The notes under the pieces were generated by a model. That model ran no database searches, was not told the DNA's origin, and was given only the letters and a program-made list of their open reading frames with translations. The position numbers and the translations under genes were made by a program. From contig CAWFOJ010000138.1 of the NCBI GenBank assembly GCA_963816585.1, positions 3,676 through 67,675 of the forward strand: DNA of 64,000 bases, given 5' to 3'. The DNA comes from an uncultured Holophagaceae bacterium. GTDB taxonomy: Bacteria > Acidobacteriota > Holophagae > Holophagales > Holophagaceae. Within the stretch, counting starts at the first letter, position 1, and every line of letters begins with the position of its first letter. Below are positions 4,389 through 31,974 of this stretch, one piece after another.

Positions 4389-5363
4389 ATGCGTCAAACG
4401 ACCCCGGCCCTTGAACCCGGGCGGACAGCCGCCTTCCACCCGGCCCTCCTGGACCACATCGGCGCCACGCCCCTCCTGCGTCTGGACCGCCTGGCCGCCC
4501 GGGAGCTTCCCCGGGGCGTGGAACTGCTGGCCAAGGCCGAGCACCTGAACCCCAGCGGCTCCCTGAAGGACCGCCCGGCCAAGGCCATGATCCTGGCGGC
4601 CTTGGCGGACGGGCGCCTGGCCCCCGGGCGGTCCATCCTGGACGCCACCAGCGGCAACGCCGGCATCGCCTACGCCATGATCGGCTCCGCCCTGGGCTAC
4701 CCGGTGACCCTGTGCCTGCCCGCCGACGCCACCCCCGAGCGCAAGAGGATCCTGCGCATCTACGGTGCCCGGGTGGTGGAGACGGATCCGGCCCAGGGCT
4801 CCGACGGAGCCCAGCGCCGGGCCCGGGAACTGTTCCGGGCCGACCCGGACCGCTTCTTCTACGCGGACCAGTACAACAACGACGACAACTGGCTGGCCCA
4901 CTACCGGAGCACCGCGGAGGAGATCTGGGCCCAGACCCGGGGCCGGATCACCCACTTCGTGGCCGGGGTGGGGACCTCCGGGCTGTTCACCGGAACGGTG
5001 CGCCGCCTGAAGGAGCGGCACCCCTCCCTGCAGGCGGTGGCGGTGCAGCCCGACGGCCCCGGGCACCGGCTGGCCGGGCTCAAGCACATGGCCACGGCCA
5101 TGGTCCCGGGCATCTACGACCCGGGGTTGGCGAATGCGCAGGCGGCGGTATCCAGCGTTGCGGGCCTGGCCATGACCCGGCGCCTGGCCCGGGACGAGGG
5201 GCTGCTCGCGGGCCCCAGCACCGGGGCCAACCTGGTGGCCGCCCTCCAGCTGGCCGCGGGCCTGCCGCCGGGATCGGTGGTGGTGACGGTGCTGTTCGAT
5301 TCTGGCGCCCGCTACCTGGGCGAATCGTTCTGGGAGGAGGATTCCTCCCGGGCCGACCCTTGA
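4389..5363 (+). CDS. cysM: PLP-dependent cysteine synthase (CysM-like)
   Basis: IGATPL, KAEHLNPSGSLKDR (PLP lysine), DATSGNAGIA, GVGTSG, EGLLAGPSTGAN; ATG at 4389 follows GGAG. Confidence 0.85.
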   Translation: MRQTTPALEPGRTAAFHPALLDHIGATPLLRLDRLAARELPRGVELLAKAEHLNPSGSLKDRPAKAMILAALADGRLAPGRSILDATSGNAGIAYAMIGSALGYPVTLCLPADATPERKRILRIYGARVVETDPAQGSDGAQRRARELFRADPDRFFYADQYNNDDNWLAHYRSTAEEIWAQTRGRITHFVAGVGTSGLFTGTVRRLKERHPSLQAVAVQPDGPGHRLAGLKHMATAMVPGIYDPGLANAQAAVSSVAGLAMTRRLARDEGLLAGPSTGANLVAALQLAAGLPPGSVVVTVLFDSGARYLGESFWEEDSSRADP

Positions 5364-5380
5364 CTTGCGGAGCCCGCGCC

Positions 5381-6118
5381 ATGCCCGCCGACGCCACCTT
5401 CCCCCCGCAGCCCGGCCCCGCCTGGGTGGAGGCCTGGAACCTGCGCCACCAGGACGCGGACGCCGAGGCCATCCTGGACGCCGCCCTGGAGGCTTTCCAT
5501 CCGCGCCTGGCCTTCGCCTGCAGCCTGGGCCTGGAGGACGTGGCGCTCCTGGACCTCGTCTGGCGGCGCGCGCTCCGGCCGCGGATCTTCTTCCTGGACA
5601 CCGGCCGGCTGCCCCAGGAGACCTACGACACCCTGGCGGCGGTGCGGGACCGCTACGGCCTGCCCATCGAGGCGTACTGCCCCCGCACCGAGGCGGTGCA
5701 GGCCCTGGTGGCGGCCAAGGGGCCCAATTCCTTCTATGGGAGCCTGGAGAACCGCCTGGAGTGCTGCCACCTGCGCAAGGTGGAGCCCCTGGCCCGGGCC
5801 CTGGCGGGGGCGGCGGCCTGGCTCACGGGCATCCGCCGGGAGCAGGGGGAGACCCGGGAGGAAGCCCGGCCCTTCCAATGGGACCCGGCCAACGGCGGGC
5901 TGGTGAAGGTGAACCCCCTGGTCCATTGGCGCCTGGACGACGTGTGGGCCTATGTGCGCCGCCACCAGGTGCCGTACAACCCCCTCCACGACCGGGGCTA
6001 TCCGAGCATCGGCTGCGCCCCCTGCACCCGCGCCGTGCGCCCGGGGGAGGACTCCCGGTCCGGCCGGTGGTGGTGGGAAGCGCCTGGAACCAAAGAATGC
6101 GGCCTGCATCGAAAGTAG
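5381..6118 (+). CDS. cysH: Adenylylsulfate (APS) reductase, thioredoxin-dependent, CysH family
   Basis: FLDTG, ECCHLRKVEPL, YPSIGCAPCT, GRWWWE, ECGLH; CC plus CxxC indicates the 4Fe-4S APS-reductase type. Confidence 0.93.
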   Translation: MPADATFPPQPGPAWVEAWNLRHQDADAEAILDAALEAFHPRLAFACSLGLEDVALLDLVWRRALRPRIFFLDTGRLPQETYDTLAAVRDRYGLPIEAYCPRTEAVQALVAAKGPNSFYGSLENRLECCHLRKVEPLARALAGAAAWLTGIRREQGETREEARPFQWDPANGGLVKVNPLVHWRLDDVWAYVRRHQVPYNPLHDRGYPSIGCAPCTRAVRPGEDSRSGRWWWEAPGTKECGLHRK

Positions 6119-7035: not shown

Positions 7036-8360
7036 TGATCGACGCGTGCGCTTCTCCCGCCGTCTCCGAACCGGGCCTCCTGCGCTTCATCACCTGCGGC
7101 AGCGTGGATGACGGCAAGAGCACCCTCATCGGGAGGCTGCTCTACGACAGCAAGGCCATCCTGGCCGACGCCCTGGATTCCCTGCACCGGGTGTCCAGCC
7201 GGCGCGGCGCCCGGCGCCTGGACCTGAGCCTGTTGACGGACGGACTGCAGGCGGAGCGGGAACAGGGCATCACCATCGACGTGGCCTACCGCTTCTTCGC
7301 CACGGCCAGGCGCAGGTTCATCCTGGGGGACACGCCCGGGCACGAGGCGTTCACCCGCTACATGGTCACCGCCGCCAGCACCGCGGACCTGGCGGTGATC
7401 CTGGTGGACGCCCGCCAGGGCGTGCGAACCCAGACCCGCCGGCACGCGGCCCTGGCCCATCTCCTGGGCCTCGGGCACCTGGTCCTGGCGGTCAACAAGA
7501 TGGACCTGGCGGGCTGGTCCCGGGCGGCCTTCGAAGCCATCCGGGAGGAGGGCCTGGCCCTGGCCCGGGAACTCGGCATTCCCCACCTGGAGTGCATCCC
7601 GTTGTGCGCCCTGGAAGGGGACATGGTGGTCACGCGGGGGCGGCGCCTGCCCTGGCACCAGGGGCCGACCCTCCTGGAGCACCTGGAATCCGTGCCCCTG
7701 GCCCCGGACCAGCCGGAGCGGCCGTTCCGGTTCCCGGTGCAGTGGGTGTGCCGCCCGGACCCGGACCGGGCCCCGGACTTCCGGGGCTACGCCGGGCGGG
7801 TGGAGTCGGGAACGGTGCAGGCGGGCGGCCGGGTGCTGGTGCTGCCGGGGCGCCAGGGCACCCGGGTGCGGGCCATCCATTTGGGGGACCGGCGCCTGGA
7901 GGCGGCCCGGGCCGGCCAGAGCGTCCTGCTGGAACTGGAGGACGCCCTGGCCGTGGGCCGGGGCGACCTGCTGGCGGACCCGGACGACCCGCCGGCCCTG
8001 GGCCGGGACCTGGAAGCGACCGTGTGCTGGTTCGCCCAGGCGCCGGTGCGGGCCGGGGCGCGCCTGCTGCTGCGCGCAGGCACCCGGGAGACCCGGGCCG
8101 GCCTGGTCCGGATCCGCTCCCGGCTGGACCTGGCCACCCTCAAGCCCCAGGCGGCGGACCAGCTGGTCATGAACGACATTGCCGAAGTGTCCCTGCGCCT
8201 GGAGCACCCGGTCCCGGCCGATCCCTATGTCGCCAACCGGCCCACCGGCGCCTTCATCCTGGTGGACGAGGACAGCAACGACACGGTGGCGGGGGGGCTG
8301 GTGAAGGGGTTCACCACAGGGACGGATGGGACGCCTCGACCTTGGGGTGCGCCTGCCTGA
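7035..8360 (+). CDS. cysN: Sulfate adenylyltransferase subunit 1 (GTPase; no CysC domain)
   Basis: LRFITCGSVDDGKSTLIGRLL, AEREQGITIDVAY, DTPGH, VNKMD, TGAFILVD. Confidence 0.95.
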   Translation: MIDACASPAVSEPGLLRFITCGSVDDGKSTLIGRLLYDSKAILADALDSLHRVSSRRGARRLDLSLLTDGLQAEREQGITIDVAYRFFATARRRFILGDTPGHEAFTRYMVTAASTADLAVILVDARQGVRTQTRRHAALAHLLGLGHLVLAVNKMDLAGWSRAAFEAIREEGLALARELGIPHLECIPLCALEGDMVVTRGRRLPWHQGPTLLEHLESVPLAPDQPERPFRFPVQWVCRPDPDRAPDFRGYAGRVESGTVQAGGRVLVLPGRQGTRVRAIHLGDRRLEAARAGQSVLLELEDALAVGRGDLLADPDDPPALGRDLEATVCWFAQAPVRAGARLLLRAGTRETRAGLVRIRSRLDLATLKPQAADQLVMNDIAEVSLRLEHPVPADPYVANRPTGAFILVDEDSNDTVAGGLVKGFTTGTDGTPRPWGAPA

Positions 8361-9718
8361 ACTCGTGCACGTAGGCGGGGTCCTTGAAGGCGGAGAGCTT
8401 GGCCCGCCAGTCCCGTCCCTTCTCGAAGACCTTGGTGTAGAGGGATTTACGGCTCAGCTCGAGGACGATCCGGTGGAAGGCGACCGGATCCGCCGGTTGC
8501 AGCCCGGCGCGCACGTGCAGGGGCCCGGTGAATTCCGGGGGCGCCGGGTGGTCCGCCGTGCCCGGGTTGATCACGTAGGCCCGCCAGGCCACCACCCGGC
8601 TCCACGGCACCATGCCCGGCACCGCCACTTCCTGCTCGTGCTGCCACATCCCGCGCAGTTGGGACGCATCCAGGCCTCCCGCCGCCAAGGCCACGTAGAC
8701 GTCCCCCCGCCGCTCCGGCTTGCCGACCGACGCGGACCTCGAGGCGTAATACCGCGCCACGTTCACGGAGCGGGTCAAGGACACGAAGCCGCCGTGGATG
8801 GTGCCGATCAGGTTCGAGGCCAGGTTGAAGGCCCGGCTCAGATCTCTGACGTAAGTCTGGGATTTGGGTGCGTCCATGATGGCTGCGAACGTGGGCCGGG
8901 CCGGGTTGTGCGGGTCCGGCCGCATGAGCTGGCACCAGAATCCACCGGTCTTGGCCAGCTGGCTGGGCTCGGCCGGGCTGCCGGTGAACAGGTAGGCGGT
9001 GACCCGGCGGGTCTTGGCTGGATCCCAATCATTGCCCTTGGCACTCAACAATTTTTCATAAACTGGCACCATGAGGTCCGCAGACCAGGCGGCCGAATGG
9101 ATCACCGGGCGTTCGATACCATCGATGTATTCGAACTCCTGACCCCTGGACTGGAAGCTGAAGTACCCTTCGGCGTACCCCGCCGAGCCATCCGGCGGCA
9201 CCTCCTCGAAATCCCCGAACCGAGAGGTGTCGGTCTTCAGGGCCTGAAGCTGGTCCTGGTAGGCACGGATGATGGGGCAATAACGGGTCATGGGCATGGC
9301 GGTCCACGAAGTCCTGGGGCAGCGGAGCCAGAGCGTCCTGCGGGGACGGGGGGGTGGCGGGCCCGGAGGGCGGCGTCTGGGACGGGGGGGTGGCGGGCCC
9401 GGAGGGCGGTGTCTGGGACGGGGGGGTGGTGGGCCCGGAAGGCGGTGTCTGGGACGGGGGGGTAACGGGCCCGGAAGGTGGCGTCTGGGGCGGGGGGGTG
9501 GCGGGCCCGGAGGGCGGTGTCTGGGACGGGGGGGTGGTGGGCCCGGAAGGCGGTGTCTGGGACGGGGGGGTAACGGGCCCGGAAGGTGGCGTCTGGTACG
9601 GGGGGGTGGCGGGCCCGGAGGGCTGGGCGCCGGTGGCCTGGGTTACCCCGCCGCCGCCTCCCGGACAGGCCAGGATGAGCCCCAGCAGCAGAGTCAACGG
9701 AAAGCCCGGCAAGCGCAT
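8311..9718 (-). CDS. Lipoprotein with Pro/Thr/Ser repeat stalk and C-terminal ADP-ribosyltransferase (enterotoxin A-like) domain; probable +1 indel near 9302
   Basis: Signal peptide with lipobox LILAC; 12-aa repeats; removing one C joins DFVD to AMPMTRY; C-terminal motifs YLFTG..P...KTGGF, GFVSLTRS, HEQEVAVPGMVPWSRVVAW. Confidence 0.7.
9343..9623. repeat. 36-bp coding tandem repeat, about 7.8 copies
   Basis: Unit GGGACGGGGGGGTGGCGGGCCCGGAGGGCGGCGTCT and variants start at 9343, 9379, 9415, 9451, 9487, 9523, 9559 and 9595; encodes PSGP[A/V/T]TPP[S/P/Y]QTP on the minus strand. Confidence 0.95.
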
Positions 9719-14795: not shown

Positions 14796-15719
14796 ATGCG
14801 GGTAGCCTTCCTGGGCACCCCGGCCGCCGCCGTCCCGGCCTTGCGGGCCCTGGGCGGCGCCGTCCCCGTGGCGGCGGTGTTCTGCAACCCGGACCGGCCC
14901 CAGGGGCGGGGCCGGCGTCTGGAATCCCCGCCGGTGAAGCGGGCGGCCCTGGAGCTGGGGCTGCCGGCCCACCAGCCGGAGCGCTGGAAGGCGCCGGAAA
15001 CCCGGGCCCTGTGGGAATCCCTGGGCATCGACCTGGGGGTGGTGGTGGCCTATGGGCACCTGCTCCCCTCCTGGATGCTGGACAGCTGCCCCCTGGGCGT
15101 GTGGAACCTGCATTTCTCCCTGCTGCCCCGCTGGCGGGGCGCCGCGCCGGTGAACCACGCCATCCTGGCGGGGGACCCGGAGACCGGCGTGAGCCTGATG
15201 CGCCTCACCCCCGGACTGGACGAAGGCCCGGTCCTGGCCCAGACCCGCCGGCCCATCGCCCGGCAGGACACCGCCGAAGGCCTCCTGGAGTGCCTGGCCC
15301 AGGACGCGGCGGGCCTGCTGGCGGCCCAGTTGCCCATCCTGGCGGCGGGACACGCCGACCCTCGTGCCCAGGACCCGGCCCTGGCCACCCTGGCGCCCAA
15401 GCTGGACAAGGCCATGGCCCGGCTGGACCCGGCCCGCCCCGGAGCGGACCTGCACCGCCAGGTGCGCGCCCTGCAGCCCTGGCCGGGCACCGAGCTGGAA
15501 CTGGACGGCACCATGCTGAAGGTCTGCGCCGTGGGCGCCCTGCGTCCAGACGCCGCCAGGCCCGGCACCCTGGCCTGGAACCGCCAGGGCGCCTGGTTGA
15601 CCGCCGGAGACGCCACCGCCCTGGAACTGACCCTCCTCCAGCGCCCCGCCAAGCCCATCCAGCCAGCCCCCCAGGCGCTGCAGCCGTGGGGAGGGAGCGG
15701 GAGCCTCCTGGTCAGGTGA
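14796..15719 (+). CDS. fmt: Methionyl-tRNA formyltransferase
   Basis: FLGTP, PDRPQGRG, VVAYG, NLHFSLLPRWRGAAP, LDEGP; follows def. Confidence 0.95.
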   Translation: MRVAFLGTPAAAVPALRALGGAVPVAAVFCNPDRPQGRGRRLESPPVKRAALELGLPAHQPERWKAPETRALWESLGIDLGVVVAYGHLLPSWMLDSCPLGVWNLHFSLLPRWRGAAPVNHAILAGDPETGVSLMRLTPGLDEGPVLAQTRRPIARQDTAEGLLECLAQDAAGLLAAQLPILAAGHADPRAQDPALATLAPKLDKAMARLDPARPGADLHRQVRALQPWPGTELELDGTMLKVCAVGALRPDAARPGTLAWNRQGAWLTAGDATALELTLLQRPAKPIQPAPQALQPWGGSGSLLVR

Positions 15720-15721
15720 GC

Positions 15722-16106
15722 GTCCGGGTCCCGGTGTGCGGCAGGCCCTTCGGGCGGGTTCCCTCAGGTCGCGCCGACCCACCGTTGCTCGGCTTCGTAA
15801 GCCCGTGCTCGCTTTGCTGCGCGCGGTCTGACGAAGCGCTCGCTTGCTCGTCGAGGCCGACCGGAGGACGTGGGGCACCGGCACCTTCGGGGCGGACTGC
15901 GGGAATCGCCTCCGCAGACTTTACAGCTCCTTTCACGGTCGCAAGATCAAGCTGACTCGCCAGGTCCTGGAGTTCGCATTGTCGCTCTCTGGCCCCCTCG
16001 TGAATCACCGAACCCAAAGTCCGGTGCGGCTCGACGGCTGGTGGCCGTGAATCGGCGCGAGACCCGGAACCTGTACGACGGCCCTGCCGCCGGGCGGAAC
16101 CCGTAC
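15722..16106. repeat. Structured palindromic interspersed element, copy 1 (about 385 bp)
   Basis: Collinear similarity to 31601-31974; imperfect terminal inverted repeats and nested internal stems; lies between convergent fmt and phhB. Confidence 0.85.
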
Positions 16107-16114
16107 CCTCTCCG

Positions 16115-16360
16115 CTACACCCCGAACGGCTTGATGGCTTCGTCGATCTTGGCGGCCAGGGCGTGGTCCTTGCCGGTGACGCCGCCGGCCTCGTGGGTGG
16201 TGAGGGTGATGTTCACGTAACCCCAGCCGAAGCTGATGTCAGGGTGGTGGTTCATGGCCTCCGCCGGCCCCACGATGCGGCTCACGATGTTGAAGGCGGT
16301 GAGGAAGTCCGGGGTCTTGATGGCGCGGTGCAGGGCCTTGTCTTGTTCCGTCCAGCTCAT
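16115..16360 (-). CDS. phhB: Pterin-4-alpha-carbinolamine dehydratase
   Basis: AEAMNHHPDI, LTTHEAGGVTGKD; directly downstream of phhA. Confidence 0.93.
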   Translation of the reverse strand: MSWTEQDKALHRAIKTPDFLTAFNIVSRIVGPAEAMNHHPDISFGWGYVNITLTTHEAGGVTGKDHALAAKIDEAIKPFGV

Positions 16361-22701: not shown

Positions 22702-22776
22702 GTCCGTGTCCCGATGCGGCGGCAAGTCCGTCCCCCGGGTTCCGGGGCGTTCGCGCCGCCCCACCGGGACCCGGAC
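22702..22776. repeat. Internally deleted mini-copy of the ~380-bp palindromic element
   Basis: Left ~62 bp match the element's left end (CCGGGTTCCGG.GCGTTCGCGCCGCCCCACC) and are joined directly to its right end (ACCGGGACCCGG). Confidence 0.75.
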
Positions 22777-22798
22777 CTTTACTTGGTCACACTCCTAG

Positions 22799-23068
22799 GA
22801 GCCTGACCATGTATTATTCGGCCCCGCGCTGGTGGCACCGGGCCTAGCCAGACAAGGAAGGTTCCGAAGGGGGTATAGGTTATACCTCCGAGGAACCTGA
22901 CGCCGGATGGCTGGGCCCGCTGCCACCAGCCCGGAGGGTCGGCGCCCAGACCCGCGCCTCTCGTGTGCAAGTCCCTTGAAGGTAGCACCACTACCTCCTG
23001 CGGGCCTTGCGCTCGATAGGCACGGGTCTGGACGCCGACGCGGGGCCGAATAATACATGGTCAGGCTC
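22799..23068. mobile_element. MITE (270 bp) with 30-bp perfect terminal inverted repeats flanked by CTAG
   Basis: GAGCCTGACCATGTATTATTCGGCCCCGCG (22799-22828) and its exact reverse complement (23039-23068); CTAG on both sides; no transposase ORF. Confidence 0.85.
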
Positions 23069-23839
23069 CTAGTTCAGGGACCGGCACTGGTAGGCGTGGG
23101 TGTGGTAGGGGAAGGCGACGGTCTCCCGGCCCCGCAGGTCCGGATGGCCGGCGATCAGGGCGCGCAGGGCCGCCTCCACCTGGTCCTTCTGGCCGGGCGG
23201 CAGCTTGGCGATGAAGCTCACGGACAGACAGCGGTCGATGATCACCTCCTGGGGCGGCCCCGCGTGCTGGTGGGAAAAGCAGGTCTCATCCAGCGCCGTG
23301 AACCGGCTGCCGCCGAAGGGCAGGCGCCACCGGCCGGTGTGGAACCGGGGCGTGTCCCCTTCGAAGGGTTCCAGGATCCTGGTGATGGCGGCCACCCAGT
23401 CCACCGATTCGTCCCGGACGTTCCACACCAGGCCCAGACATCCTCCGGGACGCAGCACCCGGTGGATCTCCCCCAGGGCTTCGGGCCCGGCGAACCAATG
23501 GAAGGACTGGGCGCAGACGACCGCATCCTGGCTGCCGGATGCCAGGGGCATGGCCTGGGCGGTGCCGTCCAGGGCCCGCGCTCCGGGCACTGCCGCCGCC
23601 AGTTCCCGGCGCATGGCCGGGACCGGTTCCACCGCCGTCACCTGGGCCCCGGTGCGCACCAGGAGCCGCGTGAACTTGCCGGTGCCGGCGCCCAGGTCCA
23701 GGCAGGTCCGCCCTTGGCCCAGCCCCAGGTCCCCGGCGAGCCAGCCCAGCAGGGCCTCCGGATAGTCCGGACGGCCGCGGGCATAGGCGCCAGCGCCGGC
23801 GGTGAAGCCCTGGGCCGCGGAGGGATGCAGGTCGGACAT
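23069..23839 (-). CDS. Class I SAM-dependent methyltransferase
   Basis: YARGRPDYP, LDLGAGTGKFT, AQSFHWF, RVLRPGG. Confidence 0.92.
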   Translation of the reverse strand: MSDLHPSAAQGFTAGAGAYARGRPDYPEALLGWLAGDLGLGQGRTCLDLGAGTGKFTRLLVRTGAQVTAVEPVPAMRRELAAAVPGARALDGTAQAMPLASGSQDAVVCAQSFHWFAGPEALGEIHRVLRPGGCLGLVWNVRDESVDWVAAITRILEPFEGDTPRFHTGRWRLPFGGSRFTALDETCFSHQHAGPPQEVIIDRCLSVSFIAKLPPGQKDQVEAALRALIAGHPDLRGRETVAFPYHTHAYQCRSLN

Positions 23840-29560: not shown

Positions 29561-29650
29561 GGACATCCCCTCGTGCATGAGCGATGGCTGGCCGGGAAAT
29601 CCTATCATGGCTCCAGCCCGCTCCCCCCCGGGTGTCGGTCCAGTGGCAAT

Positions 29651-29669
29651 ATGAAATAGAATCATTATT
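29651..29669. promoter_or_regulatory. Fur-box-like AT-rich site upstream of ribBX
   Basis: ATGAAATAGAATCATTATT matches 12/19 of GATAATGATAATCATTATC, including an intact AATCATTAT half-site. Confidence 0.35.
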
Positions 29670-29682
29670 TCGAGGTACCGTC

Positions 29683-30751
29683 GTGAGCGCACCCTTCTCT
29701 TCCATCGAAACGGCCATCGAGGCCATCCGCCAGGGGCGCATGATCGTCGTGGTGGATGACGAGAACCGGGAGAACGAGGGGGACCTCACCATCGCCGCCC
29801 AGTACGTCACGCCGGAGGCCATCTCCTTCATGGCCACCCACGGGCGGGGCCTCATCTGCACCGCCCTGGAGGGAGCGCTTCTTGATCGCCTGAACATTCC
29901 CCAGATGGTCCACGACAACACCAGCCCGTTCGAGACCGCCTTCTGCGTGAGCGTGGAGGCCCGGGAAGGAACGTCCACGGGCATTTCGGCCCACGACCGG
30001 GCCCGCACCATCAAGGCCCTGGTGGCCCCGGACGCCAAGCCCTCGGATTTCGTCAAGCCGGGCCATGTGTTCCCCTTGCGGGCCAGGGCCGGCGGCGTCC
30101 TGGCCCGCACCGGCCAGACCGAGGCGTCCGTGGACCTGGCCCGCCTGGCGGACCTGCACCCTTCCGGGGTCATCTGCGAAATCATGAAGGACGACGGGAC
30201 CATGGCCCGGGTGCCCGACCTGGCGGCCTTCTGCGAGCGCCACCGACTGCCCCTGGTGACCGTGGAGGCCCTGGTGGCCTACCGCCTGCGCAGGGACCCG
30301 ATCATCCGCCTCCTGGCCAGCGCGACCCGGGACACCGGCTGGGGCCGCCTGGAGGTGCACCGGTTCGAGAGCCTCCTGGACGGCAGCTCCCACTTCGCCT
30401 TCGTCCTGGGCGACCCTGCCGGCCCGGCCCCCCTGGTGCGGGTGCACCAGGAGACCCTGCCCGAGGACCTGGACGGGTTCGGCCAAGTGACCCCCACCCT
30501 GTTCCACCGGGCCATGGACGCCATTTCCCGGGAGGGGCGGGGGGATCCTGGTCTACCTGCGGCGTCCCCGCACCGGGGAGGAGCCCCCACCCCGGGCGCT
30601 CAGCGACCGGGATGTGGGTGTTGGAGCCCATATATTGAAATCATTAGGGGTAAAAGAAATGCGGCTCCTCAGCCGGCAAGAAAAGAAGTACATTGGACTC
30701 GGCGGCTTCGGCCTGGATATTGTTGGACAGGTCCATCTGGATACACTTTGA
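29683..30751 (+). CDS. ribB: DHBP synthase RibB fused to a degenerate GTP cyclohydrolase II domain (RibBX); extra G near 30541
   Basis: VVDDENRENEGD, TGISAHDRA, PGHVFPL, GQTEASVDL, VICEIM; corrected frame gives EGRGILVYL...RDVGVGAHILKSLGVKEMRLL...GFGLDIV, stop at 30749-30751. Confidence 0.88.
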
Positions 30752-31239
30752 TAAACAATTCATCAATATTAATCTGCCCCCTGTTCAGAGACCTGGACCC
30801 GGCGCAGCTTGCCCGGATTTTGGCCATCGGGGAAACCAAGGGCTACCGGGCGGAGCAGGTGATCTTCCGGGAAGGGGACCCTGGTGACGGTTTATTCATC
30901 GTCGTCTCTGGAACCGTGCGCATATCCAGGCGCACCACCACCGGGGAAGAAGCCCTGGCCATCCTCGAACCCAACGCGTTCTTCGGGGAGATGGCCTTGA
31001 TCGACTGCCATCCCCGGGCCGCGGATGCGGTGGCCAACGAGGATTCGGAGATCTTCTTCATTCCCCTGGCCGGACTGCGCACCCAGTTGGAGGCAAGCCC
31101 CGGCCTCGCCAACAAAGTGCTCTACGCCCTTTGCGAAGTGCTCACCCAGCGCCTGCGGGAAAGCAACGACCGTTTCATGAACGTTTTCACCCTGGCCCAG
31201 TGGAGCACCGGCAGTAACGACCTGATCCCCCTGCCGTAG
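30748..31239 (+). CDS. Stand-alone cyclic-nucleotide-binding domain protein
   Basis: PLFRDL, IFREGDPGDGLFIVVSGTV, FFGEMALID..PRAADA; no HTH; probable TTG start overlapping the ribBX stop. Confidence 0.85.
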   Translation: MINNSSILICPLFRDLDPAQLARILAIGETKGYRAEQVIFREGDPGDGLFIVVSGTVRISRRTTTGEEALAILEPNAFFGEMALIDCHPRAADAVANEDSEIFFIPLAGLRTQLEASPGLANKVLYALCEVLTQRLRESNDRFMNVFTLAQWSTGSNDLIPLP

Positions 31240-31260: not shown

Positions 31261-31581
31261 ATGTCCGATCTCGTTAAGCACATCACCGATGCCGAATTCC
31301 AAAAGACCGTGGCCGAAGGCGTCACGCTGGTGGATTTCTGGGCCCCGTGGTGCGGCCCTTGCCGGATGATCGCCCCGATCCTGGACGAGCTGGCCGGAGA
31401 ACTGAAGGAAAAGGCCAGGATCGTGAAGATCAACGTGGACGAGAACCCGGTGGTGGCCGGGCAGTTCGGGATCATGTCCATTCCCACCCTGCTGCTGTTC
31501 AAGAACGGCCAGAAGGTCGACCAGAAGGTGGGGGGTCAGGCCAAGCCCCAGCTCAAGGCCTTCATCGAACAGGCCATCTGA
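31261..31581 (+). CDS. trxA: Thioredoxin
   Basis: VDFWAPWCGPCRMIAP, IMSIPTL. Confidence 0.97.
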   Translation: MSDLVKHITDAEFQKTVAEGVTLVDFWAPWCGPCRMIAPILDELAGELKEKARIVKINVDENPVVAGQFGIMSIPTLLLFKNGQKVDQKVGGQAKPQLKAFIEQAI

Positions 31582-31600
31582 TCGGGTCCTGGTGCGAGGG

Positions 31601-31974
31601 CCGGGTCCCGGTCGGCGGCAGGCCCGCCGTCCGGGTTCCGGTGCGTTCGCGCCGCCCCACCGTTGCTCGGCTTCGTCAGCCCGCGCGGCGCGCGGCCTGA
31701 CGAAGCGCTCGCTTGCTCGTCGGGGCCGACCAAAGAACTCAGGTATCGGTGGCTTCGGGGCGAATTGGGGGAATCTCCTCTCCAGACCGTACGGGTCCTT
31801 TCATGCCTGCCGAACCAGGGGGACCCGCCAAGTCCTGTCAGCCGGCAAGGACGCTTTCTGACCCACTCGTGAACCACCGAACCCAACGTCCGATGCGGCT
31901 CGACGGCCACCAACCGTATGGCGGCGCGAAGCCAGGAACTCGGAATGACCAAGTTGCCGCTGACCGGGACCCGG
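31601..31974. repeat. Structured palindromic interspersed element, copy 2 (about 374 bp)
   Basis: 20-bp terminal IR CCGGGTCCCGGTCGGCGGCA / TGCCGCTGACCGGGACCCGG (one mismatch); collinear with 15722-16106; between convergent genes. Confidence 0.85.

What the first reader, a model, noticed from the sequence alone, without database searches (positions are those of the whole stretch)
15722..16106. Unnamed ~380-bp multi-stem interspersed element present as two diverged full copies (second at 31601-31974)
Seen: 15722-16106 and 31601-31974 are collinear end to end, with conserved blocks such as CCCACCGTTGCTCGGCTTCGT, CTGACGAAGCGCTCGCTTGCTCGTCG.GGCCGACC and CTCGTGAA.CACCGAACCCAA.GTCCG.TGCGGCTCGACGGC, separated by diverged stretches. 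The ends pair (20-bp IR in copy 2). Nested stems show compensatory change: TCGCGCCGA/TCGGCGCGA (15769/16052) versus TTCGCGCCGCC/GGCGGCGCGAA (31646/31920). The GCTTCGT...ACGAAGC hairpin keeps its stem while its interior differs by 9 nt. Both copies sit between convergent gene ends, in the same orientation, with no transposase or evident target duplication. Inference: selection on folding rather than coding. It could be a large structured ncRNA or a non-autonomous ssDNA/RNA-mobilised element (REPIN/RPE-like). I do not recognise it as tmRNA, RNase P, SRP, 6S, a group II intron or HEARO.
Basis: partly seen in the sequence, partly recalled or inferred. Interest (0 to 1): 0.82.

Follow-up and report, generated by a model that had tools for sequence, protein, structure and literature searches.

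The report
IS701-linked miniature transposon with swapped cores
The two repeats are old, worn copies of a 446-base non-coding element found in dozens of copies in this bacterium and one close relative; it was likely spread by an IS701-family transposase and likely has its middle overwritten by sister copies, so it is probably a new member of an ordinary kind of miniature transposon, not a new RNA.

Summary
This genome (G000) has 24 loci longer than 140 bp, and I fetched 40 from a same-genus genome (G011). No long match was found in 59 other relatives.

Young copies are 446 bp: a 12-bp tip plus ~70-bp arm at each end, two perfect hairpins and a 198-bp non-coding core. They are flanked by CTAG-type tetranucleotides, and an orthologous empty site holds a single CTAG.

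The same tips bound internally deleted IS701-family transposase genes in four genomes of the genus. Intact IS701s there also end at CTAG. No RAYT and no Rfam match was found.

RNA-type selection is not supported. G·T and A·C mismatches in the arms are equal (84/84), and the core has no significant consensus fold.

Two features are less ordinary. At 9 of 12 sites shared by the two genomes the core differs by 21-28% (synonymous sites 6%), while the ends usually track the site; this points to gene conversion between copies. And 45 of 59 copies lie between convergent genes.

Verdict: a new IS701-linked MITE family of modest interest.

The parts
15722..16106 (+). Copy 1 body: left arm, hairpin H1 (long-loop form), 198-bp core, left half of hairpin H2 fused to a shortened right arm. 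The left 12-bp tip is not recognisable.
   Evidence: orthologue in G011 is L028
15792..15837 (+). Hairpin H1 of copy 1, long form (9 nt longer, as in L021 and C80)
15849..16036 (+). Core of copy 1, closed by the short inner stem 15849-15859 with 16027-16036
16040..16060 (+). Deletion junction: left half of H2 joined to the right arm.
   Evidence: (row win1)
16107..16118 (+). Shortened right tip, then CTAC at 16115-16118, which holds the TAG stop of the minus-strand Pterin_4a gene. Likely the decayed target-site copy.
   Evidence: reading as target-site copy is inference
31583..31598 (+). Decayed target slot (CGGG here, CGAG in G011) and eroded 12-bp left tip of copy 2, just after the thioredoxin stop
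31599..31974 (+). Copy 2 body: left arm, H1 at 31670-31706, core with inner stem 31718-31728/31896-31905, right arm. H2 is cleanly deleted between ACGGCC direct repeats, as in L030, C332 and C80.
   Evidence: orthologue in G011 is L022
22696..22766 (+). Third, truncated copy in the window (left arm only). It is fused to a right-end piece of the C103 IS701-remnant family and followed by an unrelated CTAG-flanked element.
14796..15719 (+). Flanking host gene fmt (formyltransferase), ends 2 bp before copy 1
31261..31581 (+). Flanking host gene, thioredoxin

Best explanation
The two stretches are eroded copies of a 446-bp non-coding inverted-repeat element (MITE) that was likely inserted at CTAG-type sites by an IS701-family DDE transposase acting in trans, and whose core has likely since been overwritten by gene conversion from other copies. 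Shown: many copies, terminal inverted repeats, CTAG-type flanks, an empty orthologous site with one CTAG, the same tips on IS701 transposase remnants, and no coding signal. Inferred: (1) The transposase binds the ~12-27-bp tips, cuts at a YTAR tetranucleotide and duplicates it. Where the TAG is a stop codon, the gene survives. (2) Insertions inside operons or promoters are purged, leaving mostly convergent spacers. (3) Once the tips decay the copy is stranded, but the long conserved arms anchor recombination with other copies (core swapping) and with each other (inversion). (4) The two perfect hairpins are kept symmetric by palindrome correction and are sometimes lost by slippage.
For: Copy number: 24 loci >140 bp in G000 and 40 fetched from G011; mean pairwise identity 77%, with a young subfamily at 92-95%. 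Target: 29 of 69 intact tips are preceded by YTAR (22 CTAG) versus 0 of 52 eroded ends; genome background is 0.09% YTAR and 0.03% CTAG. Of 22 copies with both tips, 7 have identical 4-mers on both sides, including non-palindromic ATAA and CTAA. Empty sites: 9 of 25 mappable G011 loci are empty in G000; L032/C67 (this family) and L078/C302 (sister family) show a single CTAG. Partner: L061 has this family's tip at both ends around an IS701 remnant (NF033540, E 2e-8, under cut-off). L125, L168, L165 and this genome's C103 carry the same or similar tips on IS701 remnants. The distinct intact 1,489-bp IS701 insertions listed for G001 and G008 all have CTAG on both sides and share CTACTG(T/G)G(T/G)C with the tip. 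An intact 445-aa IS701 (L220, DDE_5 E 1e-75) has tip TTCTACTGTGG. 18 full-length proteins at 63-74% identity to the L125 remnant form a distinct top group. Core swapping: 9 of 12 shared sites differ by 21-28% in the core versus 4-11% at the other 3 and 6.0% (488/8119) at four-fold sites. The orthologue shares most rare alleles at the outer ends in 9 of 12 pairs but in the core in 3 of 12. The core tree groups by genome more than shuffled labels do (9 changes vs mean 13.2, 2 of 500). 2 of 12 shared sites are inverted.
Against: No intact IS701 was found in G000 (74% complete) or G011 (85%). None with the exact tip was found in 133 family genomes or the 19 of 71 metagenome loci screened by tip pattern. 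Only the tips, not the core, resemble IS701 DNA, and those matches are weak (nhmmer E 0.007-0.35). 15 of 22 double-tipped copies lack an identical 4-mer pair, and several intact IS701s match at only 2-3 of 4 flank bases, so duplication length is unsettled. Four-fold sites are GC-constrained and may understate neutral divergence. The 'outer end' class includes flank bases. Re-insertion at the same rare CTAG could explain pairs with intact tips (C169/L029, C332/L021). Core length is very constant (169-170 nt in 40 of 43) and some core blocks are almost invariant, which pure decay does not obviously predict.
Confidence: 0.82

Rival explanations
1. Same IS701-MITE origin, but the copies have been domesticated. 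The arm-H1-inner stem-H2 four-way fold would act in RNA as a bidirectional 3'-end stabiliser or insulator between convergent genes, and conversion would keep it functional.
For: 45 of 59 classed copies lie between convergent genes, versus 150 of 1264 spacers and 161 of 670 non-disruptive CTAG sites. All 12 shared old sites are convergent. H1, H2 and the arms deviate less from consensus (7-13%) than the core (15%). A G003 sister family has the same layout with an unrelated core. The whole structure beats 500 of 500 shuffles.
Against: Patchy: no long match in 59 of 61 genomes, including complete same-genus ones. H1 or H2 is deleted in many copies, and H2 is wholly or half deleted in the two window copies. 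No strand bias of wobble pairs in the arms. No U-tail terminator found. Purging of harmful insertions explains the same bias. The shuffle control ignores relatedness, and the structure was drawn from the consensus.
Confidence: 0.15
2. A discrete ~380-450-nt structured non-coding RNA encoded in many copies.
For: Folding z-scores of -2.4 and -5.0. 39 of 51 copies fold better on the minus strand, and mean core z is -1.4 on minus versus -0.7 on plus in 14 sampled copies. Constant core length.
Against: No Rfam match. RNAalifold covariation term is only -0.37. Core consensus-fold z is -0.5 (+) and -1.1 (-). Inner stem has 4 double changes versus 2.2 expected. Target repeats and empty sites exist. 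No promoter-like site found.
Confidence: 0.04
3. A REPIN/TIRtron-like element moved as single-stranded DNA by an HUH (RAYT/TIRYT/IS200) tyrosine transposase that reads the hairpins.
For: Perfect subterminal hairpins, variable end lengths and short hairpin-only derivatives. TIRYT genes occur in Acidobacteria (PMC3733652, passages seen).
Against: PF01797 found in 0 of 5 genomes, including G011 and G003 with many copies, while 6 of 14 controls ring. Flanking 4-bp repeats and single-CTAG empty sites indicate a staggered DDE-type cut. The tips sit on IS701 remnants.
Confidence: 0.04

Closest known systems
Bacterial MITEs (NEMIS, RUP, ERIC, QMITE; PMC3733652 and PMC10969869, passages seen)
   Same: TIR-bounded, non-coding, multicopy, next to gene ends, stable predicted fold, and direct repeats that fade with age.
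   Different: 446 bp against the 70-300 bp and 15-30-bp TIRs given in PMC3733652. GC-rich, with ~80-bp arms and two internal perfect hairpins. The linked family is IS701; no IS701 MITE turned up in my searches (PMC10969869 has 0 occurrences of IS701).
IS701-family insertion sequences (NF033540, DDE_5)
   Same: Tip motif, CTAG-type flanks and ~4-bp direct repeat. PMC8024623, citing Siguier 2015, gives 4 or 5 bp for the family. The YTAR preference is recalled, not found in the papers searched.
   Different: No transposase or recognisable remnant in the core. Arms are far longer than the ~15-20-bp TIRs of the intact G001/G008 elements.
IS gene conversion and TIR-TIR inversion in Wolbachia (PMC3004938, abstract and passages seen; Cordaux 2009 seen only as a title in its reference list)
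   Same: Inversion of the interior between TIRs at shared loci, and conversion acting on dead elements.
   Different: Here it concerns a non-coding MITE in a free-living bacterium and affects most shared loci (9 of 12 cores).
REP/REPIN and TIRtron elements (PMC3733652)
   Same: Extragenic GC-rich palindromes, often between convergent genes.
   Different: About ten times longer than a REP, target duplication present, no tyrosine transposase found.

Membership tests
MITE | Terminal inverted repeats | tested here: met
   ~80-bp imperfect arms, 82-94% of cells paired
MITE | Target-site duplication and empty orthologous sites | tested here: met
   Met at family level. Decayed in the two window copies; length 2-4 bp unsettled.
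MITE | No coding capacity | tested here: met
   No period-3 signal (p 0.74); the best frame is open in 23 of 51 copies
MITE | Multicopy, dispersed, lineage-patchy | tested here: met
MITE | Ends shared with an autonomous transposon | tested here: inconclusive
   Same tips on deleted IS701 derivatives. Intact IS701s share only a core tip motif; none with the exact tip was seen.
MITE | Mobilisation in trans demonstrated | not testable with these tools
   needs an experiment
IS701 family (autonomous member) | Encodes a DDE_5/NF033540 transposase | tested here: not met
   Core has no conserved ORF and no similarity to IS701 coding DNA. It is a dependent, not a member.
IS701 family (dependent element) | ~4-bp direct repeat at CTAG-type target | tested here: met
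   family value from PMC8024623
REPIN/RAYT or TIRYT system | Y1_Tnp (HUH) transposase gene in carrier genomes | tested here: not met
   0 of 5 genomes; G000, G011 and G003 are incomplete
RPE (Rickettsia-type) | In-frame insertion inside protein-coding genes | tested here: not met
   Copies lie between genes by my codon-score gene calls
Structured ncRNA | Match to a known family | tested here: not met
Structured ncRNA | Strand-specific covariation of a conserved fold | tested here: not met
   weak minus-strand preference
Structured ncRNA | Discrete transcript | tested here: inconclusive
   Only assembled contigs of two low-share RNA runs were available
IS110/bridge-RNA or reverse-transcriptase-mobilised element | Cognate recombinase or RT gene beside a copy | not tested
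   No family search was run; TIRs with target repeats already point elsewhere

The most novel reading that the evidence does not exclude
A clan of IS701-derived MITEs in Holophagaceae has repeatedly built the same four-way-junction fold (long arm, hairpin, inner stem, hairpin) around unrelated cores. After losing mobility, its copies are kept at convergent gene ends as bidirectional RNA-end insulators and are continually refreshed by exchanging whole cores between loci: a dispersed, concertedly evolving regulatory repeat born from a DDE transposon.
Probability: 0.15. Interest if true: 0.65.

Novelty: new member of a known kind. Interest (0 to 1): 0.3.

Why it matters
As a MITE it is ordinary. 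It adds what my limited searches did not find in print: MITEs tied to the IS701 family, with a series running from intact IS through deleted derivatives with lengthened, hairpin-bearing ends to coding-free elements. It also shows that the covariation a reader sees in such repeats can come from deletion junctions, palindrome correction and conversion rather than RNA selection. The high rate of core exchange at fixed sites makes these loci a natural assay for ectopic gene conversion in a free-living acidobacterium. If the convergent bias is positive selection, it would be a case of transposon domestication.

Tried and rejected
Rfam at gathering score on the whole window and by E-value on two full copies: no match. 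RAYT/Y1 search: none in 5 genomes. Plasmid collection: 7 records with short (27-54 nt) matches only, treated as chance. Coding test: rejected; a period-12 variability peak (p 0.009, one of 10 periods tried) was not followed. Promoter and terminator scans: nothing. RNA runs X15 and X16: identical contigs upstream, one 75-nt piece with 8 differences inside the element; uninformative. Laying four DNA runs on L125 to find an undeleted parent: none seen. One search's loose tip pattern gave many chance pairs in G000; these were ignored and the count redone. C151/L025 was first counted as a shared site and dropped when its flanks proved unrelated. The second C202 copy repeats the flanks of the first and may be an assembly duplicate. 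A 2-bp TA duplication model was considered: it fits some intact IS701s but not the ATAA and CTAA copies. Earlier scan findings: three look-ups returned nothing. No supplements were read. An intended IS review was not available in the library, so the YTAR preference of IS701 rests on recall.

Full report
Observation. They are 77% identical over 317 nt and fold better than 100 of 100 shuffles. Each lies between convergent gene ends: fmt and a Pterin_4a gene; thioredoxin and an ORF with no Pfam match. Contigs from two public DNA runs match the two junctions of copy 2 with no differences. Rfam has no match in the window or in two full-length copies.

A family, not a pair. BLAST of the host genome G000 (3.5 Mb, 74% complete) gave 30 loci, 24 of them longer than 140 bp. 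Of 61 genomes searched, 4 matched. Only G000 and the same-genus G011 have long matches; G003 and G009 match short arm pieces. I fetched 40 G011 loci. Across 51 long copies, identity averages 77% (range 65-95%), with a young G011 subfamily at 92-95%. In a scan of the genome collection for the tip, the records holding several matches are titled Holophagaceae or Holophaga; the other records hold one match each.

Anatomy. Young copies are 446 bp: a 12-bp tip plus ~70-bp arm, perfect hairpin H1, a 198-bp core closed by a short inner stem, perfect hairpin H2, then arm and tip. Both window copies are worn. Copy 2 keeps an eroded left tip at 31587-31598 and has lost H2 exactly between ACGGCC repeats, as have three other copies. 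Copy 1 has lost half of H2 and part of the right arm. The core has no codon periodicity and no conserved open frame.

Insertion signature. Of 121 ends examined, 69 keep the tip. Of these, 29 are preceded by YTAR (22 by CTAG), against 0 of 52 eroded ends and a genome background of 0.09%. Of 22 copies with both tips, 7 have the same four bases on both sides, two of them non-palindromic, and 11 differ by at most one base. Of 45 G011 loci whose flanks were sought in G000, 25 mapped on both sides: 12 hold this family, 9 are empty, and 4 hold 70-290 bp of other sequence. Two empty sites show one clean CTAG where G011 has two. Some intact IS701s match at only 2-3 of the 4 bases, so the duplication length is left at 2-4 bp, with 4 favoured.

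The partner. A tip search found an 851-bp element in G009 with perfect tips whose interior holds the start and end of an IS701 transposase. IS701 remnants with the same or similar tips occur in G007, G008, a metagenome contig, and this genome's C103. Intact 1,489-bp IS701s in G001 and G008 have CTAG on both sides and share part of the tip. An intact 445-aa element, L220, shares 11 tip bases with the remnants. Eighteen full-length proteins form a top group at 63-74% identity to the G007 remnant; I could not see their ends. Against this: no intact IS701 in G000 or G011, none with the exact tip among 133 family genomes or the 19 of 71 metagenome loci screened, and only weak tip-limited similarity between the family profile and IS DNA. 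No Y1/RAYT gene was found in 5 genomes. The IS701 link is therefore an inference from shared ends and target, not a shown reaction.

Is folding selected? On 42 aligned copies, my 120-pair structure beats 500 of 500 shuffles, but that control ignores relatedness and the structure came from the consensus. By part, double changes observed versus expected were: arms 27 vs 20.3, with G·T and A·C mismatches 84 and 84; inner stem 4 vs 2.2; H1 4 vs 0.2; H2 27 vs 6.8. Twelve of the H2 cases are one site, and several others are runs in two copies. The RNAalifold covariation term is -0.37. The core consensus fold is not significant on either strand (z -0.5 and -1.1). In favour of some strand effect, 39 of 51 copies fold better on the minus strand. 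Co-change confined to short-loop perfect palindromes fits palindrome correction in DNA (established mechanism, recalled) better than RNA selection. RNA data were uninformative.

Core swapping. Four-fold sites differ by 6.0% between G000 and G011. Of 12 shared sites (a thirteenth was dropped), 3 differ by 4-11% in the core and 9, including both window copies, by 21-28%. The orthologue shares the most rare alleles at the outer ends in 9 of 12 pairs but in the core in only 3 (the outer class includes flank bases). For example, L049 keeps the ends of its orthologue C130, yet its core is 5% from L032 and groups with it at 100/97 support. Two sites are inverted. I read this as ectopic gene conversion plus arm-arm recombination, processes reported for Wolbachia ISs (PMC3004938). 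Re-insertion at the same rare CTAG remains possible where tips are intact.

Position. By my own codon-score gene calls, 45 of 59 classed copies (62 examined) are between convergent genes, and 84 of 95 facing stops are within 30 bp of the element. Many sit exactly 12 bp from the arm, meaning the TAG of the target is the stop codon. Only 161 of 670 non-disruptive CTAG sites are convergent, so target supply does not explain the bias. Purging of harmful insertions is the simpler cause; use as an RNA-end element is not excluded. Shared loci are counted once in each genome; G011 alone gives 27 of 37.

Comparison. It works like a bacterial MITE and meets the TIR, target-repeat, non-coding and multicopy tests. 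It is larger than the 70-300 bp given in PMC3733652 (passages seen). It is not an IS701 member, since it encodes nothing, but it likely depends on one. Searches for IS701 with MITE, YTAR or CTAG terms listed no paper describing such a family. I saw listings for most hits and passages of PMC10969869, PMC8024623, PMC3733652, PMC3004938 and bioRxiv 2024.01.18.576219. Subscription journals and ISfinder were not searchable. A sister family in G003 has the same arm-hairpin-stem-hairpin layout around an unrelated core, which is the main support for the novel case.

Verdict. A real element and a new member of a known kind. Interest 0.3.

Noticed in passing
window 22796-23073: A second, unrelated 278-bp inverted-repeat element flanked by CTAG on both sides. 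It has 99-100% identical copies on C47, C202, C91, C46 and C240, so it was likely active recently. Its transposase was not sought. G011 has a different hairpin element in this spacer.
   Followed up: partly
L127:1197-2030 (G000 C103): An internally deleted IS701 with long arms and subterminal hairpins. Its end sequence recurs at more than ten other loci of G000, forming a further MITE-like family.
   Followed up: partly
L108:2504-2935 and other G003 loci: A 432-bp sister family whose predicted fold is a nearly gap-free four-way junction. The interior is inverted relative to the tips in some copies. About 40 tip matches in G003.
   Followed up: partly
L078:939-1098, 5290-5449; L062; L066; L069: Further sister families of 160-530 bp with the same tip type and different interiors in G011, G009 and G003.
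   Followed up: no
L034, L041, C202, window 22766-22799: Different families stack at each other's CTAG repeats, forming element piles.
   Followed up: no
window 15808-15828; L021; L022; G003 family: The long forms of the hairpin loops are similar between families with unrelated cores and contain GCGCAGC or GCGAAGC on one strand. I recall these as very stable DNA mini-hairpins; not tested.
   Followed up: no
L220:1-2251: An intact IS701 with unusually long non-coding ends (about 290 and 350 bp), and another copy of its tip about 100 bp upstream in the opposite orientation.
   Followed up: no
window 29584-31239: ORF with DHBP synthase, partial GTP cyclohydrolase II and cNMP-binding domains in one frame.
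   Followed up: no
G000 C202:6633-7329 and 8328-9015; C336:4396 and 18558: Inverted near-duplicates of the same locus within a contig, one with many indels; possibly assembly artefacts.
   Followed up: no
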